A DNA stretch of 64,000 nucleotides. Origin: Bacteroidota bacterium (GTDB taxonomy: Bacteria > Bacteroidota > Bacteroidia > Chitinophagales > Chitinophagaceae). Where the stretch lies: contig JAEYQO010000104.1 of assembly GCA_023409975.1 (NCBI GenBank), forward strand, positions 1,157 through 65,156, written 5' to 3'. The translations under genes and the position numbers were made by a program. Of the stretch, positions 6,292 to 28,827 are shown piece after piece; positions within the stretch are counted from its first letter, which is position 1, and each line of letters begins with the position of its first letter. Below the pieces are notes generated by a model, which saw nothing but the letters and a program-made list of their open reading frames with translations, was not told the DNA's origin and did no database searches.

Positions 6292-6324
6292 AGAGTAGCG
6301 TTTCGAATGATGAGGTTTGATGGG

Positions 6325-7089: not shown

Positions 7090-7158
7090 ACTATCTCTGC
7101 TTAAATTACAGCAAACTTAATCGATCGATTCCAGGCCAGATAGAACCAAAACGACGTC

Positions 7159-7998: not shown

Positions 7999-8135
7999 TG
8001 AAATGTGATTTGATTGTTCGGTTCGTAAAGTAGCAGCTTTTCCGGTGAAGAGAAACTGATAGGTTCTGCGGCCACGATGACCTGTAAGGATGTAGCCGGG
8101 AATCACCCTCCATTCGGAAGCATCGCGAATGGAGG

Positions 8136-8168
8136 CTGTCTCTGAACTGAGAGACAGCCTTTTTTTTG
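8136..8168 (+). terminator. Intrinsic terminator-like hairpin with T8 run (plus-strand sense)
   Basis: AGGCTGTCTC-(8 nt)-GAGACAGCCT followed by tttttttt. The stem starts at 8133 and overlaps by 3 nt a second 10-bp hairpin (8107-8116 / 8126-8135). Both flanking genes are on the minus strand. Confidence 0.45.
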
Positions 8169-8265
8169 CGGGTGTCGGATGGAAACCCGCTGGCTTTCAT
8201 ACGATTCCCGATGCCTCATTTCCGTTTTTTGATACAGCCCTTTTGCCAGTGGCTGTGTTAATGCC

Positions 8266-9314: not shown

Positions 9315-9884
9315 ATGCTTTCTGTGAGAATAAAAAGCGAAACCCTGGAGGAACACCAACAGGCTGAAGCCCAATTATTGCCTTTTCTGAATTCCATCCA
9401 AACCCGCGACCAATACATACAACTGCTCCAAAGTTTCCTGCAATTTTATCAGCCATTGGAAAATTTAATACATGCTGCGCTGACCCCAGAGCAATTGCCA
9501 GACCTACACGAACGCAGGCATGCACACCGGCTGCTTTCAGACCTCAGGGAACTGAATGCTGCAGAGGGTCTCCTGCCGGTGCCGGTCCGTGATACCCTTA
9601 CTGCTCCCGGTGCCTGGGGCGCTCTTTATGTACAGGAAGGATCCACACTGGGAGGTCAGTATATCAGTCGACTTTTACTGAAGAATGAGGCGCTCCGTCT
9701 GACACCTGCCCAGGTATCGTTTTTTAGTGGATATGGTAGTCAGACCGGCACCCGGTGGAAACTGTTTCAGGAATCCCTCAATAAACAGCGGGACGAAGAT
9801 GCCATCATTGCTGCCGCAAAACATACTTTTTTACTTTTTCAAAACCATCTGAATGCAACCCTTAACTTTTTCGTCACTCGCTGA
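9315..9884 (+). CDS. bphO: Heme oxygenase (biliverdin-producing, BphO-type)
   Basis: LSVRIKSETLEEHQQAE (proximal-His region), ...YIQLLQSFLQFYQPLE..., GALYVQEGSTLGGQYIS (the distal-helix G..YV.EGS.LGG motif of HO). Its end overlaps the phytochrome start by 32 nt. Confidence 0.8.
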   Translation: MLSVRIKSETLEEHQQAEAQLLPFLNSIQTRDQYIQLLQSFLQFYQPLENLIHAALTPEQLPDLHERRHAHRLLSDLRELNAAEGLLPVPVRDTLTAPGAWGALYVQEGSTLGGQYISRLLLKNEALRLTPAQVSFFSGYGSQTGTRWKLFQESLNKQRDEDAIIAAAKHTFLLFQNHLNATLNFFVTR

Positions 9885-11382: not shown

Positions 11383-11400
11383 TAGCTGTTATTTTCAAGT

Positions 11401-14400
11401 ATGCGTAAAGGAAGCAGTTCGCAGGAAAACACCGAGGTGAAGGAACGCTCTTTGGAAAAAAACTATGTGGTAGCAATAGGGGCGTCTGCAGGCGGATTGG
11501 AGGCGATCAATGAGTTCTTCGACAATATGCCGGCTACACGCCACCTTTCCTTCATCATCATCCAGCACCTTTCGCCGCAGCATAAGAGCCTGCTGGTGGA
11601 GCTGATCTCCCGTCACACGGAGATGCCCGTGAAAGAAGCGTCTCAGGAAGAGCGGATCCGCCCGGGACATGTTTATGTGATCCCCAATAATAAAGTCATT
11701 ACTGTAGTCAACGGTCAACTCAAGCTGGAGGATAAGTCCTTTGTAAAGGCACCGAATACGGCGATCGATATTTTCCTGAAATCACTGGCGGATGATATGA
11801 GAGACCGCAGTATTGCGGTTATACTTTCCGGAACTGGTACGGACGGAAGCAGGGGGATTCAGGATATTAAGACGGCGAACGGCCTGGTGCTATCGCAGGA
11901 CCCTGCCTCCGCACAGTTTGATGGTATGCCTAATAGTGCCATCGCAACTGGATTCGTCGACTTCATTCTGCCGCCCGAACTGATGCCTGAAACGATTTTT
12001 GATCATATTGACGAGTCTCCGAAAATTGAGCAGCAGGATGAACACCAGCCTGCTGAGTCTGATCTGCCGGGCGTATTGAAGCTGGTGGAGCAGCAATGTC
12101 AGCATGATTTCACTAACTATAAGGCAGCCACACTGCTGCGCAGGATCTACCGGCGCATGATCTCACAGGGGATTAATCATTTCCCGGACTACAGGAAGCT
12201 ACTGGAAACCTCAGCTGAAGAATGTGAAAACCTCGGTAAGGACTTCCTGATCGGTGTCACAAAGTTCTTCAGGGATAACTCCGCTTTCCAGGCCCTGCAA
12301 CAAAAAGTGCTGATCCCACTCATCCGGGAGAAAGCCGATAACGAACTGTTGAAAGTATGGGTAACCGCCTGCAGTACCGGACAGGAGGTGTACAGCCTTG
12401 CAATCCTGATCAATGAACTGATCGAAAGGGAAGGGAAGAACCTGGGGGTAAAGCTTTTTGCGACCGATGTGGATGCCGGGGCAATTGAAACCGCAGCGAA
12501 GGGTGTCTATTCCGCAGAGCAAATGGAGGATGTGCCAAAGCCGCTGCGTGACCGATATTTCATTTCCGACGGCCGGAATTTCGTCATACAGCCTCAGTAT
12601 CGTAAACAGATCGTATTCACCAGACATAACGTGATCAAGGACCCGCCCTTTATCAAAAATGATCTGGTGACCTGCCGCAATATGCTCATCTATATGAATC
12701 CGGCGCTGCAGCAGAAGGTATTGTCGACACTGGAGTTCTCGCTGAATACCGGAGGGTACCTCTTTCTTGGACCCAGCGAGGTGCCGGGTTCCGGACACGC
12801 TTTGGAAACGGTGGATGTGAAATGGAAAATATTCCGGAAACTTGAAGCGAGTGATGGATATAGGCCGGAGCGGACGCCTTCCGTACAGATACAGACCAGG
12901 AAAGCCTCGCCGGTCGCTACGAGAAAGCTTTCGCCTCTGGAAGAGCTATTTAAAAGCACGTTGATAGAACATTACGGTTTTGCAGCTCTTACTATTGATA
13001 AGAATTTCGATCTAAAAGAGGCTATCGGGGATTATAAGAAATACCTGTCACTGCCGGAAAAGCAGTTCTCACTGAACATCCTGAAAATGGTGCCGCCAGA
13101 GCTTTCCTTGAGTATTTCAGCCGCAGTCAGAAAGGCTATGAAGGAAGAAAAGGAGGTTACCATTCCTCAACTTTTTATCAGTGAAACCGGTGAGCGGGTT
13201 CAGATGCTGGTGCGGCCTTTCCCGGGCGGCACACAGGCCATGTTGCTCCTGGCACGTGCAGAAAACCTTCATGCTCCCGCTGCAGAACCGATAGAGCCAC
13301 TGAATCCTTCTGATGCCGCCTACGTGAAGGAACTGCAGGAGGAGCTGAAGGAAACACGACTGAACCTTCAAGTGGCCCTGGAAAGCCAGGAAACAGCCAA
13401 CGAAGAACTGCAAAGCAGCAACGAAGAACTACTGTCGGCCAATGAAGAGCTGCAGAGCAGTAACGAGGAGTTGCAGTCACTGAATGAGGAACTGCATACA
13501 CTCAATACGGAGCACCAGTTACGCATCAAAGAGTTGGTTGAGCTGACGGATGATCTGAATAACTATTTCAGTAGTACGCACATCGCCCAGATCTTTGTTG
13601 ATGGAGATCTGCGGATCCGTAAGTTCAATCCGGCTGCACAGGAGGTTATCAACCTGATAGAAGATGATATCGGACGTCCGATTCAGCATATTTCGAGTAA
13701 TATCACCAATGCCCCCCACTTTCCCGATGAGATTCAGAAAGTGATCGCGAGCCGGCAATCAGTGGAGCGGGAAGTGCAGTTGTTCAATGGTCACGCGCTT
13801 TCTCTGCGGATCTTTCCTTTTGTACGAAAGGACAAATCGGTTGACGGGGCAGTAATTACCTTGTATGATATCACTGCGATCAAAGAACTCAATGCTATTG
13901 TAAAGGCGGTATACAATGCCTCACTCAGCGCCACCCTTGCGCTGAAGGTAGTTCGCAGAAATGACAAGGTTTCCGGTTTTGAGGTGCTTTCGGCCAATCC
14001 TGCTACCGCTTTGCTATTACAGGGTAGTTTTACGGAGATCATCGGCAAAAACCTGAAAGACGTTTTGCCTTCGCTGCACCAGATGGGATTGACTGCGAAA
14101 TGCCAGCAGGTACTGGAAAGCGGCAGTCCGCATCATGAAGAGATTTTTCTCGCTAATGGTCAGCCACAAGGCTGGTTCGACCTTACAATTACGCAAATCA
14201 TAGATGGAGTCGTTATCTCCCTGCTGGACATCAGCGAAAGAAAGCGAAATGAAGAGCGTTTCAGGCAGAACTATCAGGAGCTGGTGAATACCCGCGAAAG
14301 TCTTCGTCAGCTGAATACCCAATTGGAACAGGTGGTAGCCTCGAGGACAGGGGAACTCCGACAGAGTGAAGAGCGATTCCGTATCGTGGCTTCCAGTATC

Positions 14401-16362
14401 AGCAGTGCCATCTATGACCGGGACCTCGTGAATAACAGGATATGGTGGAGCGAATCGTTTTATAAATGGCTGGGCCATGAGGAAACCCCCGAACTATCCC
14501 AGCCATCCTCCTGGCTCAACCTTGTGCATCCTGACGACCGAAAACGGGTGGAGGAAGCCTGGTCTGCACTGCTTCTTAATAACGGACAATGGGAACAGAC
14601 CTACCGTCTGAAAAGCAGGGATGGAAATTATATTGCTGTTGAAGATAAAGGCACCCTGCTTACCAGTGAAGCCGGGATTCCTTTTCGACTTATCGGTGCA
14701 CTGACCGATCTTTCGATTGCAGAACTCAAACAGCAGAACAGGCAGCTTCAACTGACCAATGATGAGCTGGAAAGGCAGGTTCAAAAAAGGACCCGGGATC
14801 TGGCAGAGCAGAAAGCCGTATTACAGGATCTGTTCATGAGGGCACCGGCGATGATCTGTATCCTCAGAGGGGAAAGCCTGGTGTTCGAGCTGGTAAATCC
14901 GCAGTATCAGAAGATGTTCCCACACCGGGAATTGAAAGGTAAATCGGTCTGGGACGCGTTACCGGAAATCAAAGGACAGCCCATCGAAAAGATATTGCAG
15001 CAGGTATATGAGAAGGGTGAAACTGCGGTAGAAAATGAATTCAGGGTAGAGTTGACGCGGGCTGGGGATGGTTCGCTGGAAGAATCCTTTTTCAATTTTG
15101 TTTATCAACCGACATTTGACGAAGAAGGAAAAGTGGATGGGATTCTGGTATTTGCCTATGAGGTGACAGAACAAATGTTGGCACGCCGGGCAGTACAACA
15201 GGCCAACGAAGAACTGAGACAATTGAACCGTGAGTTCCAGTTTGTTACCGATTTTATGCCTCAACTGGTTTGGTCTACACAGCCGGATGGTTATCACGAT
15301 TTCTACAACCGGCGCTGGTATGAATACACAGGATTGAGCTACGAAAGAACCAAAGGGGAAGGGTGGAACGCTGTTTTGCATCCGGAAGACCAGGACAGGT
15401 CCTGGGAATTATGGAAGAAGAGTCTGGAGACGGGGGAAGTCTATGAGGTGGAATACCGGTTCCGGAGATACGACGGCGAATATCGCTGGTTTCTGGGAAG
15501 AGCGCTCCCTCTGAGAGATGACAACGGAACCATCCTGAAATGGTTTGGGACCTGCACGGACATCCATGATCAGAAGATTATGAACGAACTCCTGGAGGAA
15601 CGGGTGAAAGAACGTACTTCTGAACTGGAGGCCGCCAATGCGGAGCTCACCCAGTTTGCTTCCATCGCCAGTCATGATCTTAAGGAGCCTGTCCGAAAGG
15701 TGATCATTTTCAGCCATGCTTTGAGAGATCTTCATGAGAAAGATCTGAACGAGAAAGCGCTTCGCTACCTCGAAAGAATCATCACTTCCGCAACACGGAT
15801 GAATCAGCTGGTGACGGATCTGCTGGACTTCACCGGTCTGAGTAATGTAAACTTCCAGACTGAAGTGGTGGATCTGAATGAGCTGCTTGCTGGGGTTCTT
15901 GGTGACCTGGAGCTTAAGATTCAGGAGACAGAAGCTGAGATAGAAATAGGCCCACTTCCTGAAATAGAACTGATTCCTGCTCAGATACGGCAGGTGTTTC
16001 AGAATCTGATCTCCAATTCATTAAAGTTCAGGCGCGGGGAAGTTCCGCTGCTCGTGCGGGTTGAAGCTCAGCGCGTCTCAGATCTTTCCTTTACCAGCAC
16101 CCAGACCAGGGAAGGTGCCTATGTACGGATCCGCGTGGAGGATAATGGCATCGGCTTCGATAATGAGTATGCGGAGAGGATCTTTAAGATGTATCAGCGA
16201 TTGCATTCAAAGGAAAGCTACGAGGGTACGGGCATTGGTCTGGCCATCGTCAAAAAGGTAATCGAAAACCACAAAGGCATCATACGCGCGCAGGGCAGGG
16301 AAGGTCATGGGGCTGTATTTGAGATCGTTCTGCCTTTGAGACAGAAGGAGGGTGCCAGGTAG
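11401..16362 (+). CDS. CheB methylesterase - CheR methyltransferase - coiled coil - multi-PAS - HisKA/HATPase sensor histidine kinase
   Basis: CheB: VVAIGASAGGLEAINEFF..IIIQHL..ILSGTGTDGS. CheR: DFTNYKAATLLRRIYRRM, VWVTACSTGQEVYSLAI, LFATDVDAGAIE, CRNMLIYMN. NEELxSx heptads, then several PAS modules. HisKA: FASIASHDLKEPVRK (His codon 15673-15675). HATPase: VEDNGIGF...GTGIGLAIVKKVIENHKG. Confidence 0.9.
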   Translation: MRKGSSSQENTEVKERSLEKNYVVAIGASAGGLEAINEFFDNMPATRHLSFIIIQHLSPQHKSLLVELISRHTEMPVKEASQEERIRPGHVYVIPNNKVITVVNGQLKLEDKSFVKAPNTAIDIFLKSLADDMRDRSIAVILSGTGTDGSRGIQDIKTANGLVLSQDPASAQFDGMPNSAIATGFVDFILPPELMPETIFDHIDESPKIEQQDEHQPAESDLPGVLKLVEQQCQHDFTNYKAATLLRRIYRRMISQGINHFPDYRKLLETSAEECENLGKDFLIGVTKFFRDNSAFQALQQKVLIPLIREKADNELLKVWVTACSTGQEVYSLAILINELIEREGKNLGVKLFATDVDAGAIETAAKGVYSAEQMEDVPKPLRDRYFISDGRNFVIQPQYRKQIVFTRHNVIKDPPFIKNDLVTCRNMLIYMNPALQQKVLSTLEFSLNTGGYLFLGPSEVPGSGHALETVDVKWKIFRKLEASDGYRPERTPSVQIQTRKASPVATRKLSPLEELFKSTLIEHYGFAALTIDKNFDLKEAIGDYKKYLSLPEKQFSLNILKMVPPELSLSISAAVRKAMKEEKEVTIPQLFISETGERVQMLVRPFPGGTQAMLLLARAENLHAPAAEPIEPLNPSDAAYVKELQEELKETRLNLQVALESQETANEELQSSNEELLSANEELQSSNEELQSLNEELHTLNTEHQLRIKELVELTDDLNNYFSSTHIAQIFVDGDLRIRKFNPAAQEVINLIEDDIGRPIQHISSNITNAPHFPDEIQKVIASRQSVEREVQLFNGHALSLRIFPFVRKDKSVDGAVITLYDITAIKELNAIVKAVYNASLSATLALKVVRRNDKVSGFEVLSANPATALLLQGSFTEIIGKNLKDVLPSLHQMGLTAKCQQVLESGSPHHEEIFLANGQPQGWFDLTITQIIDGVVISLLDISERKRNEERFRQNYQELVNTRESLRQLNTQLEQVVASRTGELRQSEERFRIVASSISSAIYDRDLVNNRIWWSESFYKWLGHEETPELSQPSSWLNLVHPDDRKRVEEAWSALLLNNGQWEQTYRLKSRDGNYIAVEDKGTLLTSEAGIPFRLIGALTDLSIAELKQQNRQLQLTNDELERQVQKRTRDLAEQKAVLQDLFMRAPAMICILRGESLVFELVNPQYQKMFPHRELKGKSVWDALPEIKGQPIEKILQQVYEKGETAVENEFRVELTRAGDGSLEESFFNFVYQPTFDEEGKVDGILVFAYEVTEQMLARRAVQQANEELRQLNREFQFVTDFMPQLVWSTQPDGYHDFYNRRWYEYTGLSYERTKGEGWNAVLHPEDQDRSWELWKKSLETGEVYEVEYRFRRYDGEYRWFLGRALPLRDDNGTILKWFGTCTDIHDQKIMNELLEERVKERTSELEAANAELTQFASIASHDLKEPVRKVIIFSHALRDLHEKDLNEKALRYLERIITSATRMNQLVTDLLDFTGLSNVNFQTEVVDLNELLAGVLGDLELKIQETEAEIEIGPLPEIELIPAQIRQVFQNLISNSLKFRRGEVPLLVRVEAQRVSDLSFTSTQTREGAYVRIRVEDNGIGFDNEYAERIFKMYQRLHSKESYEGTGIGLAIVKKVIENHKGIIRAQGREGHGAVFEIVLPLRQKEGAR
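13399..13503 (+). repeat. Five in-frame 21-nt repeats encoding the NEEL(Q/L)S(S/A) heptad coiled coil
   Basis: aacgaagaactgcaaagcagc / aacgaagaactactgtcggcc / aatgaagagctgcagagcagt / aacgaggagttgcagtcactg / aatgaggaactgcatacactc. Confidence 0.9.
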
Positions 16363-17284: not shown

Positions 17285-18910
17285 ATGTTAGGACGTCTTT
17301 ATCTTTTTGGCGCTGTCTGGCTACTGCTGGGCAGTTCTGACCTAAACGCTCAATCGCTGCAGTGGGCACATCATTTCGGCGGCCAGGAGTGGGATATCAG
17401 TTCGGCCATTGTCGTGGATGACAGCGGGTATGTTTACGCTACCGGAACTTTTAAGGGAACTGTGGATTTCGATCCGGGACCTTCTTCACAGATACTTACA
17501 GCGCAGGGAACGGCTGATGGTTTCGTCTGCAAGTTCAATCGACTCGGCGAGTTGGTTTGGGTTGGGCATCTGGAGGGCGACGGAGCGCAGGATTGCCATG
17601 CGCTTGCAACTGATCATCAGGGAAACATTTTGGTTGCAGGATTCTTTCTGGGACAGACTGATTTTGATCCGTCTGCCGGTACGCATCAACTGATCTCTTC
17701 ACCCGGAGGTGACGCTTTCATATGGAAGCTGAACGCTGCCGGTCAGCTCGTATGGGCCAAACAGTTTACAGGTACACTTGCCATTACAGCCTATGGTGTC
17801 GCTGTGGATGATTCTGGTGATGTTTATTCCACTGGCTTTTTCGACGGGACTGCAGACTTTGATCCTGGACCTGGGCAGGTGCTTCGGACGGTTGCCGGGT
17901 ATAGTGACGCTTTCGTAGCGAAGCTTGATGCGGATGGTAATCATCAATGGGTACAATTGTTTGCCGGTAATTATGGTGAGGTAGGGCATGCCATTGTGCT
18001 TGACCAGCAGGGAAATGTATTCACTACAGGTACTTTTTTCGGCACGGCGGATTTTGATCCGGGTCCCAATCTGTTCCAGTTACATGCTCCGGGTGACCAG
18101 GAGATCTTCCTTTGTAAACTGGACGCAAACGGTGAATTTCAGTGGGCACAGTCGCTGGGTGGAGATGTGGGAATGGCACTGCTTGTGGATGACTCTGCCA
18201 ACGTGTATACGACCGGTTACTTCGGCTGGGACGATATTCAAATATTCAAGTTTGATAATAATGGGTCGCTTCTCTGGACGAAGCAGATAGGTGCCTTTTT
18301 CGGAAACGACCTTGCGATGGGCAGTGATGGGAGCGTTTATATTGCAGGTCAGTTCTTTGATACCCGGGATTTTGATCCAGGTCCTGGTCAGGTGTTCCTC
18401 ACCGCCATTGGCAGTACGGATTCCTATATTCTGAAGCTTTCACCAGGTGGCGGTTTTGATTGGGTAATGCAATTTGGTGGTATGAATGAAGTGAAAGCCG
18501 TATCGCTGGCTATTGATGATCAGGAACAGTTGTATTTAGCAGGAACTTTCGACAGTACGGCTGACTTCGATCCTGGTCCGGGGAGCGTTCCATTAACCTC
18601 CAATGGCAGCTATGATATCTTCCTAACCAGATTGAGCGCAGTTCCGCAGACGGTGTTTCAACCTGAGAAGCAGCAGTCAGCAGTCGTGTATCCAAACCCG
18701 GTTTCCGGCAGATTATGGGTGCGTTTCCCTGTGGAACAGCAACAGGTTCAGATACGACTGATGAACCTGGAAGGCAAGACCTTGGAGGAGTGGACGAAAC
18801 GGAAGATTCAGGAGGCTGCATTCCCGGTAACGCAGCCATCAGGGATTTACCTGCTGGAAATTGTGACGGAAGAACACGCGCGAACCGTTCAGCGGGTGGT
18901 GGTTCCGTGA
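17285..18910 (+). CDS. SBBP (beta-propeller) repeat protein with T9SS type-A C-terminal domain
   Basis: About 8 repeats of G(T/S)(A/V)DFDPGPG...; signal peptide; C-terminal VVYPNPVSGRLWVRF...GIYLLEIVTEEHARTVQRVVVP. Confidence 0.8.
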   Translation: MLGRLYLFGAVWLLLGSSDLNAQSLQWAHHFGGQEWDISSAIVVDDSGYVYATGTFKGTVDFDPGPSSQILTAQGTADGFVCKFNRLGELVWVGHLEGDGAQDCHALATDHQGNILVAGFFLGQTDFDPSAGTHQLISSPGGDAFIWKLNAAGQLVWAKQFTGTLAITAYGVAVDDSGDVYSTGFFDGTADFDPGPGQVLRTVAGYSDAFVAKLDADGNHQWVQLFAGNYGEVGHAIVLDQQGNVFTTGTFFGTADFDPGPNLFQLHAPGDQEIFLCKLDANGEFQWAQSLGGDVGMALLVDDSANVYTTGYFGWDDIQIFKFDNNGSLLWTKQIGAFFGNDLAMGSDGSVYIAGQFFDTRDFDPGPGQVFLTAIGSTDSYILKLSPGGGFDWVMQFGGMNEVKAVSLAIDDQEQLYLAGTFDSTADFDPGPGSVPLTSNGSYDIFLTRLSAVPQTVFQPEKQQSAVVYPNPVSGRLWVRFPVEQQQVQIRLMNLEGKTLEEWTKRKIQEAAFPVTQPSGIYLLEIVTEEHARTVQRVVVP

Positions 18911-22314: not shown

Positions 22315-22770
22315 TCAGGATTTGAGATGTCCATTCAATCTGTCCAGTTCTCCATTCCTGCAGTGACTCACGACTGCTGAAAGGACTTCTATAAGCAGTT
22401 TATACTCTGATGGTTTTGTAATAAAACTGATGGCGCCAAGGTCAGAGGCAATTTCCCGGTCTCGGTCATGCGACGAAGTGGAGTACATAATAACGGGAAT
22501 ATCCCGGTGCTCCTGAGTCTTCTTGAGTTGTGTCAGGCATTGCCAGCCACTCATTCCCGGGAGATTTATGTCCAGAAAGATCAGATCAGGTTTTAGCCCG
22601 CCATTCCCTCCAAGTCTGTTTAAGGCATCCTCGGCGTTTTCTGCAAACTCGCAACTGATTTGACTGTCAACACTTGCGAGTGCTTCTGAAAATAATTCGC
22701 GGTCATCTGCATCATCGTCTACTACTAAGAAACTATTTTTCATGGGGTCTTGTTGGTTAGATTCTGGCAT
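22315..22770 (-). CDS. Single-domain response regulator (receiver only, Rcp1-like)
   Basis: FLVVDDDADDRELFSEAL...PDLIFLDINLPGMSGWQCL...IPVIMYSTSS...ISFITKP. The start is ATG 22770 (14-nt overlap with the kinase stop) or ATG 22743. Confidence 0.85.
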   Translation of the reverse strand: MPESNQQDPMKNSFLVVDDDADDRELFSEALASVDSQISCEFAENAEDALNRLGGNGGLKPDLIFLDINLPGMSGWQCLTQLKKTQEHRDIPVIMYSTSSHDRDREIASDLGAISFITKPSEYKLLIEVLSAVVSHCRNGELDRLNGHLKS

Positions 22771-25700
22771 TTTCTTGTTTCATAGGTAACAGGATCGTGA
22801 ATGTTGCACCCTGTTCTCTTTCGCCTTTTGCACTGATCTGTCCTCTGTGACGTTCCACGATCTTTTTGCAAAGAGCCAGTCCGAGCCCTGTACCTTCAAA
22901 ACGGTCTTTGGAGTGCAGACGCGTAAAGGTATTAAAGATCTTTTCAGCATACTCCTGTTGGAAGCCGATACCATTATCTTCAATGGTAATTGCGGCATAA
23001 CGCCCGGAAACATCCTCGACTTCTTTTGAAGAAATGGTGATTACAGGGTGGGTATCTTCTTTGGCGAACTTGAGAGAGTTGTTTACGAGGTTGTAGAAAA
23101 GCTGATAGATCAACAAGGACGCGCCTGGCACGGCTGGTAGTCTGCCTCTTTTTATCTGCGCGTTTTTCTGGTTTATCGGAATTTCCAGGTCAGCTTCCAC
23201 ATGATCGATCACCTCATTGAGGTCCACGTCACTGATCGGCTGTTTTTCAGCATCAGCCTTTGAGTAATTCAATACACCGTCAATCATCGCAATCATCCTG
23301 TCTGTAGCGTTCTGGACTTTGTTGATAAAGGTTTTACCTTTTTCCGGAAGCATTTCAGCGAACTCGTCCTCCAGCCGGAGCGTAAACGTTTTGATCTTGC
23401 GTACCGGTTCTTTCAGATCGTGACTGGCGACGTGGGCAAACTGCTGGAGATCCTGGTTTGATCGCTGCAGTTCCTGGGTTCTTTCTGTTACCAGCATCTC
23501 CAGTTTTTCCTGGAAGGTTTTCTGATCATCGATATCTGTACTGGTGCCCACCCAACGCACCACATTACCATTGGAGTCGTTGAGTGGGTGTACCCTTGTG
23601 AGAAACCAACGGTATTCACCATCGTGTCTCCGCATCTGGAAAGTAAATTCAAATGGCTCCTCGGAACGCAGGCCTTCTGTGGTAAGTGCCATTACAGCAT
23701 CCTGTTCTTCAGGGTGGTAACAAGAGCGCCAGCCCCAGCCTTCCATTTCCGAAGCGGGTGCCCCTGTATACTCAAACCAACGGTTATTGTACCAGTAGAC
23801 CCATCCATCAGACCTGGCCATCCAGGTGAGGTTCTGAATGCTGTCTGCGAGCGTCCGGAATTGTTCCTCGCTTTGCTTGAGTGCTTCTTCAGCCAGTTTC
23901 CTTTCGTGAATATCGAAGCCAACACCTACATGGCCAATGAAGCCGCCATTTGGCAGAAACCGGGGGCTTCCTTTGAAAGTATGCCAGCGGTATTCGCCAT
24001 CATGCCTTTTGAGCCGCACTTCGGGGATTGTATAGGCCTCTTTATTACGGAAACCCTCAGTGTATTTTTCAAAAACCAGGTGCAGGTCGTCGGGATGAAT
24101 AAACCCGTTCCATGCACGTTCCAGTGCTTCGTCATAATTCTGACCCGTATAATCCAGCCAGGTTTTATTGAAGTAGCTCATCGTAGCCTGCTCGTTCGGC
24201 TCTACTATGTAAATGATCATAGGAGTCTGGTCCGCCAGCATACGGAAGCGCTTCTCACTTTCCATGAGCGCTTTTTCCGCTTTTTGCTTTTCCAGAACAT
24301 CCTGATACCATTCAATAACGATACCCGCTGAACGGGAAAGAAGATTGACCACATCCTTGTCTTCCTCACTTGGAGTATGGATCTCAGGATAGTAGAAAGC
24401 GAAAGTGCCCAGCACCTTTCCTCTCGAAGAAAAGATCGGCGTTGACCAGCAGGCCCGGAGCCCATGTGTCAGTGCCAGGTCTTTGAAATTATGCCATCGT
24501 GGATCATTCGCGATATCGGCGACTACAACCTCCTTCTGTAAGAATGCGGCGGTACCGCAGGATCCAACCTGCTCACCGATGGAAATACCATGAATAGCTG
24601 CATTATACGCTTCCGGCAGGCTCGGGGCAGCGCCGTGAAGCAGCCGCTGACCTTCTTCGTCCAACAGGAGCAGAGAGGCTGATAGTGGGAAAGATGCATT
24701 AGTTTCTGCCGCTCTTACCAGGGTCTCCAATACAGCCGGAAGCGGCTCTGCATGAACAGCCTGTTCGAAAGCTTCCTTTTGCCCTTTCAGGATTGATTCT
24801 ATGCGCTTCCTTTCGGTGATGTCCTGCATGGAACCGAGCATCCGGGTGGCTTTACCGGAAGCGTCTCTGATAACATACCCGCGGTCGAGAACAGACTTAT
24901 AACTACCCTGCGATGTGCGGAAACGGTATTCATCAATCCAGAAGCTATCGCCCTTGTCAATGATTTCATGAATGCCATTGACAACACGATCCTGATCGTC
25001 CGGATGTATGCCGTTATACCAGGATGCGACGGTAGGGTCGATTTCGTAATCCTCAAATCCGAACAAGGTTTTGAAGCCTTCATTCCACCATAGGGAATTT
25101 GTTTGCAGTTCCCAATCCCAAACAGCGTCCTGGGTCGCTTTCGTTACCAGACGGAATCGCTCATCGCTCTCCACGAGCTGTTGCTTTGCTTTCACCTGTT
25201 GGGTCACATCATTGGCAATGACTAACACTCCGCTGATCTGACCATCCATTTCACGGTAGGGCTGATAAATGAAGTTGAAATAAACGGTTTCCTTTGTACC
25301 GTCCTGGCGATGGAAGGTAGCGGGCGTTTCTGTTCCTTTAATAATCTTATCGTTGAAATAGACATCCTGCAGCAGGTCCAGGAAACCCTGTTCTTTAGCC
25401 TCCGGTAGAATATCAAGGAATTTCTTTCCGATTGCCGAACTGTCGACCTGCCAGACATTGAAGAGTGGCTGGTTGGCTACTTCTAAGACCATGTCCGGTC
25501 CTTTAAGAATCAGTATTGGATCAGGAGCCTGCTCGAGAACACTTCTGAAGAGATTTTCGCTGAGCTCAATTCTCTTTCTGGCCTGCACGGTTTCGGTTAC
25601 GTCAATGGAAAAGTTCAGCACACCCTGGACTTCCCCGCGCAGGTTGTGCCAGGGTTTATAGGCTACATTGAAGAATCGTTCCCGGAGTACGCCGCTTTCA

Positions 25701-28222
25701 TCCCTCAACTGCACGGGCATTTCGTTTTTCGTAACAGTCTGCCCGGTTTGATATACCTCGTCGAGTATGGATAGAACATCTTGTTGTTCCAGCTCGGGAA
25801 GGGCTTCTCTCACAGTCATTCCGGTAAAATCCTTGTTACCGAAAACCTCTTTGTTTTTTGGATGGAAGAATTCAAAATGGTGCTGCGGCCCTTTGAATAC
25901 ATTGATTGTCGCCGGTGCCTGCAGAAAGAGCTGATAGAATTGCTGTTCCGTCTCCCGCCGTACTTTATTGATTCGGATATGATTGGTGACACGTACAAGC
26001 AGTTCCTTAGCTGAAAATGGCTTGACAAGATAGTCATCTGCGCCTGCATCTAAACCTTCCACCTTGGCTTCTTCCCCGGCTCTTGCTGATAGGAAAATGA
26101 CCGGTGTATGTTTGAGTTCCGGGTGCTGTCGGATCTTCTCAAGTAATCCGAAGCCATCCAACAGTGGCATCATGATATCTGATAGAACCAGCTCGGGCCT
26201 GTCTGTTATCATTTTTTCGTATGCATCATTACCATCTTTAGCGGTTATAACCTCGAAATGTTCGGCCAGTAATCGCTGAAGGTATTCGCGCATGTCTGCA
26301 TTGTCATCTGCGATCAACACTTTGTGAATCTGATCGCCGGTAAGGTTTCCTATCGGTGAATTCGGAACCTCATTTTTAGCCGCTTTACGTTCCTGGAGGG
26401 GAAGCCATTTCATGGCTTCTTCAGCAAATACAACAGAATGGGTGCCCGAGGAGCCGGTATGTGCCGACTCGTTGATCTTCTCTGGGGGAAGGTGATCTTT
26501 ACCAGCGGGGATGTTGACTGTGAAAGTAGAACCCTTTCCCAGCTCGCTGGACACTTCAATGTTACCATTGTGGATTTTCACAAGTTCCATTACCATCGCA
26601 AGTCCTATACCGGTACCTTCCTGACTCCTGCCTTCCGAATGCTCCACCCGGTGGAATCGGTTAAATATCTTTTCAATCTGGTCTGAGGGAATACCTATCC
26701 CGGTATCTTTCACACTGACCTGTATGGATTTTCCAGCCTGTGCCACTGAGACTATGATGGATCCCTTTTTGCTGTACTTGAAAGCATTGGAAACCAGGTT
26801 AAGGATGATCTTTTCCCACATGTCGACATCCACATAAACATCCTCCTTTATTCTGCCACAGTTGAAAACAAGTTGCATCCCTGCTTTCTCGACTGCAGAT
26901 CTGAAGGTGCTAACGAGGTCTTCCGTGAACTTGCAGATATTCACCCTGCTAAATCTGCCTTCCATTCGGCCGGCTTCAATTCGCGAGAAATCGAGGAGTG
27001 TGTTTACCAGCTTCTGCATTCGCCGGGCATTACGCAGGGCCACATCGAGCCTGGCTTTGTTTTCTTCGATCGCTTCAGGCTCCTGAAGAGCGTCCTCTAT
27101 GGGGCCGACCAGTAGTGACAGGGGGGTGCGGAACTCATGGCTGATATTCGAGAAGAATATGGTTTTTGCACGATCGATTTCCGCCAGCGCTGCAGCTCGT
27201 TTTCTCTCCTCTTCCAGGGTACGTACGTCACCAAATGCTGTAGTGAGCTGATCTGTGATCAGTTGAAAGAAAGCCTGATATTTTTCATCCAGCAGCCGGT
27301 AGGGATTTAGACCTACCACGAGGACACCAATCGGCTCTCTGGTGGCGGTCGAGTGGACCGGAATAACCAGGACGTTGTCGGGTGGTATTTGCCAGGCGCC
27401 AGTGGGAAGCTGACCGATTTTGGAAGTAAGACCTTCCATCAGGGCGGGCTGACCTGTCTCAAGAGCGCGTCTGATCGTAGTGGGAATTTCGCCATCCGCC
27501 TGAAGAGCTACTTCGTCGTCAACAAGCGCCCTGGAACCGGCCAGGTCGGTATGCGAGACAAGAACAGCCTTCCCATTCTCTATTTTTCTGAATAATGCGA
27601 ATGGAAAATCCTGTGGATTCTCACCCAGAGTAGTGATCGTGTTTTCGATCACATCCTGATTCGTTTCACAATCCGAAAGCCGTTTGCCGAGGAGTGTAAG
27701 CGTCTTAAGCTGCCGCTCACTGATAATCTTAGCGGTATCATCTGTATTGGCACAGAACATTCCGGCGGTCTTACCATCGTCTCCGGGAATAGGGGTATAA
27801 GAGAAGGTATAGTAGGTTTCTTCGGGGTATCCGTTACGCTCCATGATGAGGAGTTGTGACTCTACATACGTGCCTTGGTCATGCTCCATCACCTTGCGGA
27901 GTAGCGGGTCGATATCGTGCCAGATATCTTTCCATACTTCGGAAGCCGGTTTGCCAAGTGCCGACGGGTGTTTACCCCCAACAATAGCCTTATAGGGGTC
28001 ATTGTATAATTTGATAAGTTCTTTGCCCCAGCCGATCCAGATTGGTTGTCTTGAGGTCAGCATGATTCTGACACAGGTTCGAAGGTTTTGAGGCCAGGTG
28101 TGTACGGGCCCGAGTGGAGTGGTAGACCAATCAAACTTCCGGATATATTCACCCAGTTCGCCTCCACCGGAAAGGAACTCGGGTAGGACAGGTGTTTCCG
28201 TTGAGGTCAGGTGTGATTCCAT
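22757..28222 (-). CDS. 1821-aa multi-domain sensor kinase: N-terminal PAS-like/GAF-like - HisKA/HATPase #1 - REC - multi-PAS - GAF - PAS x2 - HisKA/HATPase #2
   Basis: Transmitter 1: FFSNISHEFRTPLSLL (His362, nt 27137-27139) and GTGIGLAMVMELVKIHNGNIEV. REC: KVLIADDNADMREYL...LVLSDIMMPLLDG (Asp682, nt 26177-26179) ...YLVKPF. GAF: LLLLDEEGQRLLHGAAPSLP...CWSTPIFSSRGKVLGTFAFYY. Transmitter 2: FAHVASHDLKEPVRK (His1601, nt 23420-23422) and GTGLGLALCKKIVERHRGQI. Confidence 0.9.
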   Translation of the reverse strand: MESHLTSTETPVLPEFLSGGGELGEYIRKFDWSTTPLGPVHTWPQNLRTCVRIMLTSRQPIWIGWGKELIKLYNDPYKAIVGGKHPSALGKPASEVWKDIWHDIDPLLRKVMEHDQGTYVESQLLIMERNGYPEETYYTFSYTPIPGDDGKTAGMFCANTDDTAKIISERQLKTLTLLGKRLSDCETNQDVIENTITTLGENPQDFPFALFRKIENGKAVLVSHTDLAGSRALVDDEVALQADGEIPTTIRRALETGQPALMEGLTSKIGQLPTGAWQIPPDNVLVIPVHSTATREPIGVLVVGLNPYRLLDEKYQAFFQLITDQLTTAFGDVRTLEEERKRAAALAEIDRAKTIFFSNISHEFRTPLSLLVGPIEDALQEPEAIEENKARLDVALRNARRMQKLVNTLLDFSRIEAGRMEGRFSRVNICKFTEDLVSTFRSAVEKAGMQLVFNCGRIKEDVYVDVDMWEKIILNLVSNAFKYSKKGSIIVSVAQAGKSIQVSVKDTGIGIPSDQIEKIFNRFHRVEHSEGRSQEGTGIGLAMVMELVKIHNGNIEVSSELGKGSTFTVNIPAGKDHLPPEKINESAHTGSSGTHSVVFAEEAMKWLPLQERKAAKNEVPNSPIGNLTGDQIHKVLIADDNADMREYLQRLLAEHFEVITAKDGNDAYEKMITDRPELVLSDIMMPLLDGFGLLEKIRQHPELKHTPVIFLSARAGEEAKVEGLDAGADDYLVKPFSAKELLVRVTNHIRINKVRRETEQQFYQLFLQAPATINVFKGPQHHFEFFHPKNKEVFGNKDFTGMTVREALPELEQQDVLSILDEVYQTGQTVTKNEMPVQLRDESGVLRERFFNVAYKPWHNLRGEVQGVLNFSIDVTETVQARKRIELSENLFRSVLEQAPDPILILKGPDMVLEVANQPLFNVWQVDSSAIGKKFLDILPEAKEQGFLDLLQDVYFNDKIIKGTETPATFHRQDGTKETVYFNFIYQPYREMDGQISGVLVIANDVTQQVKAKQQLVESDERFRLVTKATQDAVWDWELQTNSLWWNEGFKTLFGFEDYEIDPTVASWYNGIHPDDQDRVVNGIHEIIDKGDSFWIDEYRFRTSQGSYKSVLDRGYVIRDASGKATRMLGSMQDITERKRIESILKGQKEAFEQAVHAEPLPAVLETLVRAAETNASFPLSASLLLLDEEGQRLLHGAAPSLPEAYNAAIHGISIGEQVGSCGTAAFLQKEVVVADIANDPRWHNFKDLALTHGLRACWSTPIFSSRGKVLGTFAFYYPEIHTPSEEDKDVVNLLSRSAGIVIEWYQDVLEKQKAEKALMESEKRFRMLADQTPMIIYIVEPNEQATMSYFNKTWLDYTGQNYDEALERAWNGFIHPDDLHLVFEKYTEGFRNKEAYTIPEVRLKRHDGEYRWHTFKGSPRFLPNGGFIGHVGVGFDIHERKLAEEALKQSEEQFRTLADSIQNLTWMARSDGWVYWYNNRWFEYTGAPASEMEGWGWRSCYHPEEQDAVMALTTEGLRSEEPFEFTFQMRRHDGEYRWFLTRVHPLNDSNGNVVRWVGTSTDIDDQKTFQEKLEMLVTERTQELQRSNQDLQQFAHVASHDLKEPVRKIKTFTLRLEDEFAEMLPEKGKTFINKVQNATDRMIAMIDGVLNYSKADAEKQPISDVDLNEVIDHVEADLEIPINQKNAQIKRGRLPAVPGASLLIYQLFYNLVNNSLKFAKEDTHPVITISSKEVEDVSGRYAAITIEDNGIGFQQEYAEKIFNTFTRLHSKDRFEGTGLGLALCKKIVERHRGQISAKGEREQGATFTILLPMKQENARI

Positions 28223-28304
28223 AAATGCGGTTTAGGGGAGTGTCGATTCCATTTTTTTATAAAAATTATGCCTAGCAACTTCAATACCAGGGGGTGTCAT
28301 ATTG

Positions 28305-28333
28305 AAAAAAAGCGCCTGTTTAATGCAGGCGCT
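28305..28333 (-). terminator. Rho-independent terminator after the upstream receiver gene
   Basis: Minus strand: AGCGCCTG-(7 nt)-CAGGCGCT followed by ttttttt. Confidence 0.65.
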
Positions 28334-28359
28334 GTCAATAATGACGTGAGAAACGATAT

Positions 28360-28827
28360 CTAATTCAGGTGTAGTTGTTTATAAACTGTTTCGCAAATGC
28401 TGTCTATATCCTGAATCTTGAGCTTTTCCAGTACGATCTTCAGCATTTGCATTGTCTTTCTGAAATCATAGGATTTCGTAACGAAACAGATAGCGCCTTT
28501 TTCAATCGCAAGTTCCCGGTCAGCTCTTCTGGATGAAGTGGTGTGAATGATCACCGGAATGTCCTTGAAGCGTTCCATTGATTTCAGTTTTTCAAGACAT
28601 TCCCAGCCGCTCATTCCCGGCATGTTGAGGTCCAGAAAGATGATGTCAGGGTTGTCAAATTGCAGCGTCTCGAGTTTCTCCAGAGCTTCGAACCCATCAT
28701 TAGCACAGTAGCAAATTACCTCAGGTTCGATGGAACTCAGGGCCTCACTAAATAAGCTACTGTCGTCATTGTCGTCATCTACGATGAGAAATTTTCTGTT
28801 AGAGGAGTGTTCAACTGTACTGGTCAT
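28360..28827 (-). CDS. Single-domain response regulator (receiver only), paralog of 22315-22770
   Basis: FLIVDDDNDDSSLFSEALSSIEPEVIC...PDIIFLDLNMPGMSGWECLEKLK...IPVIIHTTSS...ICFVTKS. I use ATG 28827; the listed ORF extends to 29004 with no receiver-like sequence. Confidence 0.8.
   Translation of the reverse strand: MTSTVEHSSNRKFLIVDDDNDDSSLFSEALSSIEPEVICYCANDGFEALEKLETLQFDNPDIIFLDLNMPGMSGWECLEKLKSMERFKDIPVIIHTTSSRRADRELAIEKGAICFVTKSYDFRKTMQMLKIVLEKLKIQDIDSICETVYKQLHLN

What the first reader, a model, noticed from the sequence alone, without database searches (positions are those of the whole stretch)
22315..28827. Receiver - giant dual-transmitter kinase - receiver cluster, convergent with and paralogous to the phytochrome-linked kinase
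**Seen in sequence.**
- One 1821-aa ORF holds two complete HisKA+HATPase transmitters. H-box 1 is SHEFRTP (His at 27137-27139) and H-box 2 is SHDLKEP (His at 23420-23422).
- Between them lie an internal receiver (Asp at 26177-26179), many PAS domains and a GAF domain.
- The ORF is flanked by two receiver-only proteins that are clear paralogs of each other (FL[VI]VDDD.DD..LFSEAL...PD[LI]IFLD[IL]N[LM]PGMSGW[QE]CL...IPVI..TSS).
- The upstream receiver has its own terminator (28305-28333). The downstream receiver overlaps or abuts the kinase stop.
- The last roughly 380 aa are paralogous to the C-terminus of the CheBR kinase. Compare RRHDGEYRWFLTRVHPLNDSNGNVVRWVGTSTDIDDQK...FAHVASHDLKEPVRK with RRYDGEYRWFLGRALPLRDDNGTILKWFGTCTDIHDQK...FASIASHDLKEPVRK.
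- The two genes face each other about 6.4 kb apart.

**Inference.**
- HK1 to internal REC may gate HK2.
- The stand-alone receivers resemble, in my judgement, the Rcp1-type receivers partnered with cyanobacterial phytochromes. They may be shared outputs of both kinases, which would tie this cluster to the light-sensing locus.
Basis: partly seen in the sequence, partly recalled or inferred. Interest (0 to 1): 0.6.

Follow-up and report, generated by a model that had tools for sequence, protein, structure and literature searches.

The report
Double-kinase sensor flanked by two receivers
This is a real 1821-residue signalling protein with two complete histidine-kinase units separated by a receiver, flanked by two small receiver genes; the design is already known (TodS, LvrA), it belongs to a large unstudied family found in many phyla, and its suggested tie to the neighbouring light-sensor locus is not supported.

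Summary
**Observation: confirmed.**
- ORF 22757-28222 (-) reads: PAS-like/GAF sensor, HisKA+HATPase (H362), receiver (D682), 3 PAS, GAF, 2 PAS, HisKA+HATPase (H1601).
- All catalytic motifs are intact in both kinase units.
- It is flanked by two single-domain receivers that are 44% identical. The upstream one has its own terminator.

**What it is.**
- It is not a one-off fusion. It belongs to a large family (about 8,200 clusters at 50% identity, at least 7 phyla).
- The family shares a very conserved N-terminal sensor and the order sensor, kinase 1, receiver, second kinase.
- In Bacteroidota the second kinase is phytochrome-type and is usually followed by a dedicated single-domain receiver.
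- The transmitter-receiver-transmitter design is known from TodS and LvrA. This family is neither of them and appears uncharacterised.

**Likely mechanism (inferred).**
- The sensor drives kinase 1, which phosphorylates D682.
- D682 then controls kinase 2, by allosteric gating or by a His-Asp-His-Asp relay.
- Kinase 2 phosphorylates the flanking receivers.

**Link to the CheB-CheR/phytochrome locus: not supported.**
- The kinase domains are only distant paralogs (30/85 identities in the partner-determining DHp region).
- Adjacency is not conserved in relatives.
- The receivers belong to a clade tied to the double kinase.

Interest is modest.

The parts
22315..22770 (-). Downstream single-domain response regulator (151 aa from ATG 22770; 142 aa from ATG 22743). 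Probably co-transcribed with the kinase and its likely cognate.
   Evidence: The only Pfam hit is Response_reg, residues 15-129. The acidic pocket DDD, the phospho-acceptor Asp in LIFLDINLP, the STSS motif and the Lys in ITKP are visible in the translation. It overlaps or abuts the kinase stop. Its ortholog sits directly downstream of the same-genus ortholog at 64% identity. In 23 of 38 Bacteroidota family loci a same-strand receiver lies directly downstream.
22778..23449 (-). Transmitter 2: HisKA (aa 1592-1659, His1601 in SHDLKEP) plus HATPase_c (aa 1703-1815). Phytochrome-type kinase core.
   Evidence: Pfam HisKA and HATPase_c. N, G1, F and G2 residues are invariant in the family alignment. 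Nearest solved structures are 8f71, then bacteriophytochrome kinases. It falls in the family-specific kinase-2 clade.
23531..25900 (-). Sensor array between the receiver and transmitter 2: three PAS, one GAF, two PAS (aa ~775-1564).
   Evidence: Pfam on slices. Only the first PAS is present in all Bacteroidota members. The rest varies in number among members. The same-genus ortholog has the identical array.
25988..26320 (-). Internal receiver domain (aa 635-745, phospho-acceptor Asp682).
   Evidence: Pfam Response_reg, E 2e-27. D639, D640, D682, S712 and K734 are invariant. Helix alpha-1 is conserved whatever the class of the second transmitter. In the AF2 model, helix alpha-5 runs on for 30 residues into the next PAS.
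26504..27166 (-). Transmitter 1: HisKA (aa 353-418, His362 in SHEFRTP) plus HATPase_c (aa 467-573). Classical HisKA type carrying the E..T phosphatase motif.
   Evidence: Pfam. The H-box HEFRTP is present in 189 of 190 members. Nearest solved structures are HK853, SrrB and VicK.
27188..28222 (-). Family-defining N-terminal sensor (aa 1-345): a very conserved PAS-like domain followed by a GAF domain. Ligand unknown.
   Evidence: Weak PAS_4 and GAF_2 hits. No NCBIfam family. No solved sequence relative. Across seven phyla, 47 columns are invariant and mean column identity is 61%. AF2 model has pLDDT 87 and a PAS+GAF fold. Foldseek best matches are phytochrome PAS-GAF modules, but with TM ~0.35 and ~10% identity. 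A profile search finds 8,236 cluster representatives at E <= 1e-30.
28301..28333 (-). Intrinsic-terminator-like hairpin plus T-run after the upstream receiver gene.
   Evidence: 8-bp stem, 6 G-C pairs, 7-nt loop, T7 tail. The sequence is seen.
28360..28827 (-). Upstream single-domain response regulator (155 aa from ATG 28827), paralog of the downstream one.
   Evidence: The only Pfam hit is Response_reg. It is 44% identical to the downstream receiver. Its nearest relative is the receiver upstream of the Xanthocytophaga flavus double kinase (55% identity, SH-aLRT 98). Its best solved relative is RcpA.

Best explanation
**What it is**
- The locus encodes a cytoplasmic, multi-step two-component system of the transmitter-receiver-transmitter plus receiver (TRT-R) kind.
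- It belongs to a large, uncharacterised family found in many phyla.

**Proposed signal path (all steps inferred)**
1. An unknown signal is read by the highly conserved N-terminal PAS-like/GAF sensor. This sets the activity of kinase 1, which autophosphorylates on His362.
2. Kinase 1 phosphorylates the receiver in the same polypeptide on Asp682.
3. The state of Asp682 controls the second half of the protein.
   - Most likely this is allosteric. The signal would pass through the continuous helix that joins the receiver to the first PAS domain and along the PAS/GAF array, raising or lowering autophosphorylation of kinase 2 on His1601.
   - This matches what was shown for the receiver-kinase protein LvrB.
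   - A TodS-like transfer Asp682 to His1601 may occur instead or as well.
4. The five PAS domains and one GAF domain between the receiver and kinase 2 add further inputs. Kinase 2 would then act as an integrator.
5. Kinase 2 is phytochrome-type. It phosphorylates the dedicated single-domain receiver encoded directly downstream, and probably also its paralog upstream.
6. These receivers have no output domain, so the final output must pass through protein-protein contacts or further phosphotransfer.

**Shown versus inferred**
- Shown: domain content, intact catalytic residues, family-wide conservation of the order, and co-inheritance of the receiver genes.
- Inferred: every phosphotransfer step, the gating mechanism and the signal.
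For: **Anatomy and residues**
- Domain map and key residues.
- No hydrophobic segment suggests a membrane span; the maximum 19-residue hydropathy is 1.28.

**Not a chance fusion**
- 118 of the 119 best database relatives have sensor, HK1, REC, PAS(n), HK2.
- 71 of 80 genome loci from at least 7 phyla show two transmitters. Most of the rest are cut by contig ends.
- A same-genus genome has an ortholog with the identical ten-domain order and a downstream receiver.

**Both kinases kept as enzymes**
- H-box, N, G1 and G2 motifs are present in both cores in 187 of 190 members.
- They are invariant in the alignment.

**First tier is a fixed cassette, second tier is exchangeable**
- The kinase-1 H-box is HEFRTP in 189 of 190 members.
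- Kinase 2 varies by lineage:
  - HDLKEP-type in Bacteroidota;
  - HE..[TSN]P-type in Cyanobacteria, Acidobacteriota and Myxococcota, with its own C-terminal receiver in 27 of 30 loci with this kinase-2 type;
  - no HisKA H-box in two alphaproteobacteria.
- Helix alpha-1 of the internal receiver stays the same across these classes. This fits a receiver matched to kinase 1 and acting on kinase 2 by a route that does not require docking on its DHp.

**Structure model**
- AF2 model of the receiver plus first PAS has pLDDT 94. Receiver helix alpha-5 continues as one 30-residue helix into the PAS.

**Cognate receivers**
- 23 of 38 Bacteroidota loci have a same-strand single-domain receiver directly downstream.
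- These receivers, including both receivers in the window, form one clade apart from the other receivers of this genome.

**Precedents**
- TodS works by a His-Asp-His-Asp relay (PMC4321377; PMC3018481).
- LvrA is PAS-HK-REC-HK, and phosphorylation of the LvrB receiver raises its autokinase activity (PMC5863495).

**Expression**
- Weak evidence only. Three read-sized contigs at 99% or more identity from a manure metatranscriptome lie on the kinase and on the upstream receiver.
Against: - No phosphotransfer step has been tested for any member of this family.
- The sequence data do not separate allosteric gating from a TodS-like relay. TodS also keeps an active second autokinase.
- The invariant receiver helix is only an indirect argument.
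- 12 of 37 Bacteroidota loci with both flanks have no adjacent receiver. Adjacency is therefore common but not obligatory.
- The upstream receiver is separated from the kinase by a terminator. A directly adjacent upstream receiver is seen in only 3 of 40 loci with an upstream flank; the Xanthocytophaga flavus locus also has one, 130 nt upstream of its split kinase ORF. Its pairing with kinase 2 rests on paralogy alone.
- The family is patchy: 4 of 15 genomes of the genus and 3 of 251 of the order at strict thresholds. The system is accessory, and its physiological role is unknown.
- Metatranscriptome contigs can contain DNA.
Confidence: 0.7

Rival explanations
1. Strict TodS-type phosphorelay. 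The phosphoryl group travels His362 to Asp682 to His1601 to the Asp of the flanking receiver. The DHp of kinase 2 would play the role of an Hpt domain, and the receiver would have no allosteric role.
For: - The T-R-T plus R domain order is the same as in TodS/TodT, where this relay was shown (PMC4321377; PMC3018481).
- No separate Hpt domain is encoded in the protein or its neighbours.
Against: - Helix alpha-1 of the internal receiver does not change when the second transmitter belongs to a different class.
- Up to eight PAS/GAF domains can be inserted between the receiver and kinase 2 in family members.
- The receiver is joined to the next PAS by a continuous conserved helix.
- The ATP-binding motifs of kinase 2 are kept in 187 of 190 members. 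It is therefore not a mere phosphotransfer domain, although TodS keeps its motifs too.
Confidence: 0.2
2. The flanking receivers are shared outputs of this kinase and of the convergent CheB-CheR kinase of the phytochrome locus. The two loci would then form one light-linked network.
For: - The CheB-CheR kinase has no receiver gene next to it in the window.
- Its kinase core belongs to the same phytochrome-type subfamily, with 42% identity over the last 386 aa.
- CheB-CheR kinases are found in 33 of 43 genomes that carry a double kinase, against 38 of 250 in a sample of the order.
Against: - About nine paralogs of this kinase type exist in the genome. With the core alone, two kinases on another contig are as close as the CheB-CheR kinase.
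- In the tree, the CheB-CheR core groups with other paralogs of this genome, not with kinase 2.
- In the DHp region that sets partner choice it shares only 30 of 85 residues. That places it sixth among the genome's own paralogs.
- Adjacency is not conserved. In the same genus the two genes lie on different contigs with unrelated neighbours. In a complete genome they are 720 kb apart.
- The phytochrome module is present in only 4 of 41 relatives and overlaps the double kinase in only one genome besides this one.
It is not significant among close relatives (p = 0.17).
Confidence: 0.08
3. The two kinase halves act independently. The N-terminal hybrid kinase (sensor, HK1, REC) and the C-terminal PAS/GAF kinase are merely fused, and the internal receiver serves as a phosphate sink or signals to other partners.
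For: - Each half is a complete and common architecture on its own.
- Proteins with the sensor's PAS but without kinase 1 and the receiver exist in related genomes.
Against: - The fusion is kept in nearly all members across at least 7 phyla, even though the class of the second kinase was exchanged.
- The receiver-to-PAS junction is among the best conserved parts of the protein.
- That junction is modelled as one helix.
Confidence: 0.07

Closest known systems
TodS/TodT (also TmoS/TmoT) of Pseudomonas: double sensor kinase with a His-Asp-His-Asp relay
   Same: - One soluble polypeptide with sensor PAS, kinase 1, receiver, PAS, kinase 2.
- Both kinases are active enzymes.
- The cognate regulator gene is adjacent.
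- It belongs to the transmitter-receiver-transmitter-receiver class (PMC4321377, PMC3018481).
   Different: - There is no detectable sequence relation of the N-terminal sensor to any solved structure. The PDB search of the N-sensor returned no TodS PAS1 hit, although PMC4861429 describes crystal structures of that domain.
- The partner here is a single-domain receiver, not a DNA-binding NarL-type regulator.
- Kinase 2 is phytochrome-type.
- Six sensor domains, rather than one, lie between the receiver and kinase 2.
- There are two receiver genes.
LvrA/LvrB of pathogenic Leptospira (hybrid kinase / hybrid response regulator)
   Same: - LvrA is PAS, kinase, receiver, kinase in one cytoplasmic protein.
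- In LvrB, receiver phosphorylation raises the activity of the attached kinase. This is the gating mechanism proposed here (PMC5863495).
- LvrA is the best-scoring NCBIfam model for this protein.
   Different: - The score is 440 bits against a cut-off of 1200, so this protein is not a member.
- LvrA has no PAS/GAF array between the receiver and kinase 2.
- LvrA is paired with a receiver-kinase gene, not with single-domain receivers.
Cph1-Rcp1 and bacteriophytochrome-receiver pairs
   Same: - Kinase 2 has the HDLxEP H-box. Its nearest named solved relatives are bacteriophytochrome kinases.
- It is paired with single-domain receivers. RcpA, RcpB and Rcp1 are among their best solved relatives.
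   Different: - The protein has no PAS_2 or PHY domain.
- Its N-terminal PAS-GAF resembles the phytochrome chromophore-binding module only in general fold (TM ~0.35, ~10% identity).
- The receivers are not clearly closer to Rcp proteins than to generic receivers.
KipF-PakF two-tier kinase pathway of Sphingomonas melonis (as cited in PMC5863495)
   Same: One kinase phosphorylates the receiver domain of a second kinase, which then signals onward. The logic is the same two-tier logic.
   Different: There the two tiers are separate proteins, and the second kinase is of the HWE/HisKA_2 type feeding the general stress response. Here both tiers are in one polypeptide.

Membership tests
Double-transmitter hybrid kinases (TRT-R class of Williams and Whitworth 2010) | Two HisKA+HATPase transmitter modules in one polypeptide | tested here: met
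   Pfam finds two stretches each of HisKA and HATPase_c. The motifs are intact.
Double-transmitter hybrid kinases (TRT-R class of Williams and Whitworth 2010) | A receiver domain between the two transmitters and a separate receiver gene in the same locus | tested here: met
   Response_reg at residues 635-745. Receiver genes lie at 22315-22770 and 28360-28827.
TodS/TmoS/StyS family | N-terminal PAS1 homologous to the aromatic-hydrocarbon-binding PAS of TodS | tested here: not met
   A phmmer search of the 345-aa sensor against all PDB chains at E <= 1 returned no PAS domain. PMC4861429 describes crystal structures of TodS PAS1.
TodS/TmoS/StyS family | Adjacent cognate regulator with a NarL/FixJ-type DNA-binding domain | tested here: not met
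   Both flanking proteins hit only Response_reg.
TodS/TmoS/StyS family | His1-Asp1-His2-Asp2 phosphoryl flow | not testable with these tools
   This needs labelled-ATP assays with point mutants.
LvrA (NCBIfam NF047465) | Score at or above the curated cut-off of 1200 bits | tested here: not met
   439.7 bits, matching only residues 345-756.
Phytochrome histidine kinases (Cph1/BphP) | PAS_2-GAF-PHY photosensory module | tested here: not met
   P0001 has no PAS_2 or PHY hit. The fold match to phytochrome PAS-GAF is generic.
Phytochrome histidine kinases (Cph1/BphP) | Kinase core of the phytochrome type (HDLxEP H-box) | tested here: met
   The H-box is SHDLKEP. After one unnamed kinase (8f71), the best solved relatives are bacteriophytochromes, E 4e-27.
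Rcp1-type phytochrome response regulators | Single-domain receiver encoded next to a phytochrome-type kinase | tested here: met
Rcp1-type phytochrome response regulators | Closer in sequence to Rcp1/RcpA/RcpB than to other receivers | tested here: inconclusive
   Upstream receiver: RcpA is best at 53.5 bits, with the next hits within 3 bits. Downstream receiver: the PhoB receiver scores 54.5 bits against 48.2 for RcpB.
Hybrid response regulators (receiver-kinase proteins such as LvrB, PakF), for the C-terminal half | Receiver placed N-terminal to a kinase core and joined to it by helical connectors | tested here: met
   In the AF2 model, receiver helix alpha-5 runs without a break for 30 residues into the first PAS, pLDDT 94. 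Here a PAS/GAF array lies between the receiver and the kinase core.
Hybrid response regulators (receiver-kinase proteins such as LvrB, PakF), for the C-terminal half | Receiver phosphorylation changes autokinase activity | not testable with these tools
   This needs biochemical assays.

The most novel reading that the evidence does not exclude
- The very conserved N-terminal PAS-like/GAF module may be an undescribed cofactor- or ligand-binding sensor. It has 47 invariant positions across seven phyla, including H85 and C157, and a fold that loosely recalls the phytochrome chromophore-binding module.
- The family may be a hard-wired two-tier kinase cascade. Its first tier (sensor, kinase 1, receiver) would be a portable input cassette that evolution has attached to at least three classes of second kinase.
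- In this window the second tier would combine that input with six further sensor domains and feed two dedicated receivers.
Probability: 0.3. Interest if true: 0.6.

Novelty: new variant of a known kind. Interest (0 to 1): 0.35.

Why it matters
**Background**
- Kinases with two transmitters are rare. An early census found 51 among 4,650 hybrid kinases (PMC3018481).
- Only a few have been studied: TodS, TmoS and LvrA.

**What this locus adds**
- It points to a far larger and older family built on the same plan: about 8,200 clusters in many phyla.
- The family has an extremely conserved sensor whose signal is unknown.
- Its second kinase has been swapped between classes while the first tier stayed fixed.

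**Why that is useful**
- The family is a natural system for asking whether an internal receiver gates a second kinase or passes its phosphoryl group to it.
- It can also address why cells build such cascades into one polypeptide.

**Limits**
- For this genome the practical result is an annotation: one accessory, cytoplasmic, multi-input signalling system with two probable cognate receivers, not demonstrably tied to the neighbouring phytochrome locus.

Tried and rejected
1. **Assembly chimera or one-off gene fusion: rejected.**
   - An independent same-genus assembly has the same ten-domain order.
   - A 1814-aa relative covers 100% of the protein.
   - Short DNA and RNA contigs from other samples span the receiver-PAS junction.
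2. **Recent, specific duplication of the CheB-CheR kinase C-terminus: rejected** by the tree and by DHp identities.
3. **Conserved physical linkage of the two loci: rejected**.
4. **The N-terminal sensor as a cryptic phytochrome: rejected.**
   - There are no PAS_2 or PHY hits.
   - The Foldseek match has low TM and about 10% identity.
   - Conservation is concentrated in the PAS, not in the GAF pocket.
5. **Curated family names.** NCBIfam gives nothing for the sensor and nothing above cut-off for the whole protein.
6. **Literature searches** for this family found only the TodS, Lvr and Williams-Whitworth papers, and nothing on this family. The search phrases covered two kinase domains, two transmitter domains and two HisKA.
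7. **Transcription evidence.** Only three read-sized metatranscriptome contigs were found, too few to define an operon.
8. **Sequence features meant to separate gating from relay.**
   - I compared receiver alpha-1 conservation, motif retention and the linker model.
   - They lean towards gating but are not decisive.

Full report
**1. The observation**

The window holds an uninterrupted minus-strand ORF at 22757..28222 of 1821 aa.
  - His362 in SHEFRTP at 27137-27139;
  - Asp682 at 26177-26179;
  - His1601 in SHDLKEP at 23420-23422.
- Pfam on the whole protein and on ten slices gives this order:
  - a weak PAS_4 match (~72-163) and GAF_2 (~195-330);
  - HisKA 353-418 and HATPase_c 467-573;
  - Response_reg 635-745;
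  - three PAS (~795-880, ~896-1010, 1045-1131) and GAF 1160-1304;
  - two PAS (~1350-1435, 1453-1564);
  - HisKA 1592-1659 and HATPase_c 1703-1815.
- No segment is hydrophobic enough for a membrane span.

The two flanking ORFs contain only a receiver domain.
- They are 44% identical.
- Each is the other's best match in the 3.2-Mb genome.
- The downstream receiver overlaps the kinase stop by 14 nt from its first ATG. From its second ATG it starts 13 nt after the stop.
- The upstream receiver (ATG 28827, stop 28360) is followed by a good terminator-like hairpin at 28333..28311.
- The kinase C-terminus is 42% identical over 386 aa to the C-terminus of the convergent CheB-CheR kinase at 11401..16362.
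- That kinase is preceded by a heme oxygenase gene and an output-less PAS_2-GAF-PHY protein.

**2. It is a member of a large family, not a singular fusion**

A search of 5.8 billion proteins gave thousands of relatives.
- 118 of the 119 best have the order sensor, kinase 1, receiver, one to eight PAS/GAF domains, kinase 2.
- The shortest versions, about 1,115-1,140 aa, have a single PAS between the receiver and kinase 2.
- The protein here is one of the long versions.

The 80 loci kept come from these phyla:
- Bacteroidota;
- Cyanobacteriota;
- Acidobacteriota;
- Myxococcota;
- Pseudomonadota;
- Chloroflexota;
- Planctomycetota.

A profile of the N-terminal 345 residues finds 8,236 cluster representatives at E <= 1e-30 among 1.84 billion.

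What unites the family is the N-terminal sensor.
- It has 47 invariant columns and 61% mean column identity across phyla. The motif YPEETYYTFSY is one example.
- It has no curated family and no solved sequence relative.
- An AF2 model (pLDDT 87) shows a PAS followed by a GAF.
- Foldseek puts phytochrome PAS-GAF modules first, but with TM about 0.35 and about 10% identity. I read this as a generic tandem-fold match.

Kinase 1 is nearly invariant: the H-box is HEFRTP in 189 of 190 members. Kinase 2 differs by lineage:
- phytochrome-type (HDLKEP) in Bacteroidota;
- HE..[TSN]P-type in Cyanobacteria, Acidobacteriota and Myxococcota, carrying its own C-terminal receiver in 27 of 30 loci with this kinase-2 type;
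- without a HisKA H-box in two alphaproteobacteria.

Both cores keep H, N, G1 and G2 motifs in 187 of 190 members.

**3. The receivers**

- Among Bacteroidota loci with a downstream flank, 23 of 38 have a same-strand single-domain receiver within -60 to +150 nt of the kinase stop. In 3 of 40 loci with an upstream flank it lies directly upstream instead.
- In a tree, these receivers form one clade (SH-aLRT 90) apart from six other single-domain receivers of this genome.
  - The downstream receiver of the window pairs with the downstream receiver of the same-genus ortholog (64% identity).
  - The upstream receiver pairs with the receiver 130 nt upstream of the Xanthocytophaga flavus kinase (55% identity, support 98). 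That kinase also has a downstream receiver.
- The receiver-kinase-receiver arrangement is therefore shared with at least one distant genome. The two receivers are old paralogs within a clade dedicated to this kinase family.
- Among solved structures, RcpA is the best relative of the upstream receiver. For the downstream receiver, the PhoB receiver scores slightly above RcpB. The 'Rcp1-type' label is reasonable but weak.
- Kinase 2 is nearest to an unnamed kinase (8f71) and then to bacteriophytochrome kinases. Kinase 1 is nearest to HK853, SrrB and VicK.

**4. How it most likely works**

Two experimentally studied systems have the same plan.
- TodS (PAS, kinase, receiver, PAS, kinase) passes phosphoryl groups His to Asp to His to Asp and on to TodT (PMC4321377). 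It was classed as transmitter-receiver-transmitter-receiver by Williams and Whitworth, who found 51 double-transmitter proteins among 4,650 hybrid kinases (PMC3018481).
- LvrA of Leptospira is PAS, kinase, receiver, kinase. In its partner LvrB, phosphorylation of the receiver raises the autokinase activity of the attached kinase (PMC5863495).

Three features of this family lean towards the second mechanism, gating.
- Helix alpha-1 of the internal receiver, the main kinase-docking surface, is the same whatever the class of the second kinase.
- The receiver-to-PAS junction is among the most conserved parts of the protein. It is modelled with pLDDT 94 as one 30-residue helix running from receiver helix alpha-5 into the PAS.
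- The number of domains between the receiver and kinase 2 varies from one to eight.

None of these features excludes a relay. I therefore state the common core with confidence 0.7: the sensor sets kinase 1, which phosphorylates Asp682, which controls kinase 2, which phosphorylates the flanking receivers. Within that core I favour gating over relay.

One further detail follows from established knowledge of HisKA domains. Kinase 1 has the E..T motif linked to phosphatase activity. Kinase 2 has D..E at those positions, as phytochrome-type kinases do.

**5. The proposed tie to the phytochrome/CheB-CheR locus**

- The genome has about nine kinases of the kinase-2 type. With the core alone, two on contig C48 are as close as the CheB-CheR kinase.
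- In a tree of 85 cores, kinase 2 sits inside a 100%-supported clade of 32 family kinase-2 domains. Its nearest neighbour is the same-genus ortholog at 70% identity. The CheB-CheR core groups with two other paralogs of this genome.
- In the 85-residue DHp region, kinase 2 shares 52-69 residues with family orthologs from other genera and orders. It shares only 30 with the CheB-CheR kinase.
- Among 41 relatives, the phytochrome module occurs in 4 and the sensor family in 10. They overlap in this genome and one other.
- CheB-CheR kinases as such are common in carriers of the double kinase: 33 of 43 against 38 of 250 in a sample of the order (Fisher p about 1e-15).
  - The carriers are mostly large soil-type genomes from several orders.
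  - Among close relatives the figure is 2 of 5 against 37 of 248 (p = 0.17).
- Linkage is not conserved.
  - In the same-genus genome with both genes, they lie on different contigs. None of the window's intervening genes is present, and the CheB-CheR kinase there has no heme oxygenase or phytochrome gene upstream.
  - In a complete genome of the family they are 720 kb apart.
- I conclude that the convergent position here is incidental. The shared-receiver idea gets 0.08.

**6. Organism and distribution**

- One locus from the named collection (Flavipsychrobacter sp., contig of 12,210 bp, 1372-aa kinase) is identical to the same-genus genome G002. The window therefore comes from a Flavipsychrobacter-like member of Chitinophagaceae.
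- Por-secretion tails and GldL-like hits in neighbouring genes agree with Bacteroidota.
- The kinase family is patchy: 4 of 15 genomes of the genus and 3 of 251 of the order at E <= 1e-60.
- Near-identical DNA occurs in digester, manure, compost and soil metagenomes.
- Three read-sized contigs of a manure metatranscriptome lie on the kinase and the upstream receiver. This is weak evidence of expression.

**7. Verdict**

- The finding is real and well described. The architecture is a known kind.
- The protein is a long member of a large family that nobody appears to have studied. It differs from TodS and LvrA in its sensor, its second-kinase class and its single-domain receiver partners.
The link to the light-sensing locus is not supported.
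- Interest is 0.35. The value lies in the family, meaning its unknown conserved sensor and its fixed first tier with an exchangeable second tier, rather than in this locus.

Noticed in passing
window 9315-16362: A heme oxygenase gene, an output-less PAS_2-GAF-PHY protein (509 aa) and a 1653-aa CheB-CheR-PAS-kinase lie in one tight string. A same-genus genome (G008) has a 67%-identical CheB-CheR kinase with no heme oxygenase or phytochrome gene in the 4.3 kb upstream, and no phytochrome module anywhere in that genome.
   Followed up: partly
L006 4566-8375 (Xanthocytophaga flavus NT2B1): The family kinase is split into two ORFs (4566-5318 and 5349-8375) inside the N-terminal sensor. This is either a pseudogene or a sequencing error. 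The locus otherwise has the same receiver-kinase-receiver layout as the window.
   Followed up: no
P0108 (2081 aa): One relative carries the whole first tier twice, in the order receiver, sensor, HK1, receiver, sensor, HK1, receiver, PAS. This looks like a tandem duplication of the input cassette.
   Followed up: no
L050 (Sphingomonas formosensis) and L076 (Sneathiellaceae): In these alphaproteobacterial members the second transmitter has no HisKA-type H-box but keeps G1 and G2. It may be of the HWE/HisKA_2 type.
   Followed up: no
L084-L089 (relatives G012, G016, G019, G023, G024, G027): The hyper-conserved PAS part of the sensor (residues ~15-173, 37-44% identity) also occurs at the N-terminus of shorter proteins (about 700-1080 aa). 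These go straight into PAS domains and a phytochrome-type kinase, without kinase 1 or the internal receiver. Two of them have a receiver gene just upstream.
   Followed up: partly
window 2067-3314: A DDE transposase gene (DDE_Tnp_1 plus DUF4372) lies near the start of the window.
   Followed up: no
window 17285-18910, 4454-5749 and 8266-9063: Three genes encode proteins with type IX secretion C-terminal sorting domains. One has beta-propeller repeats and one has a PKD domain.
   Followed up: no
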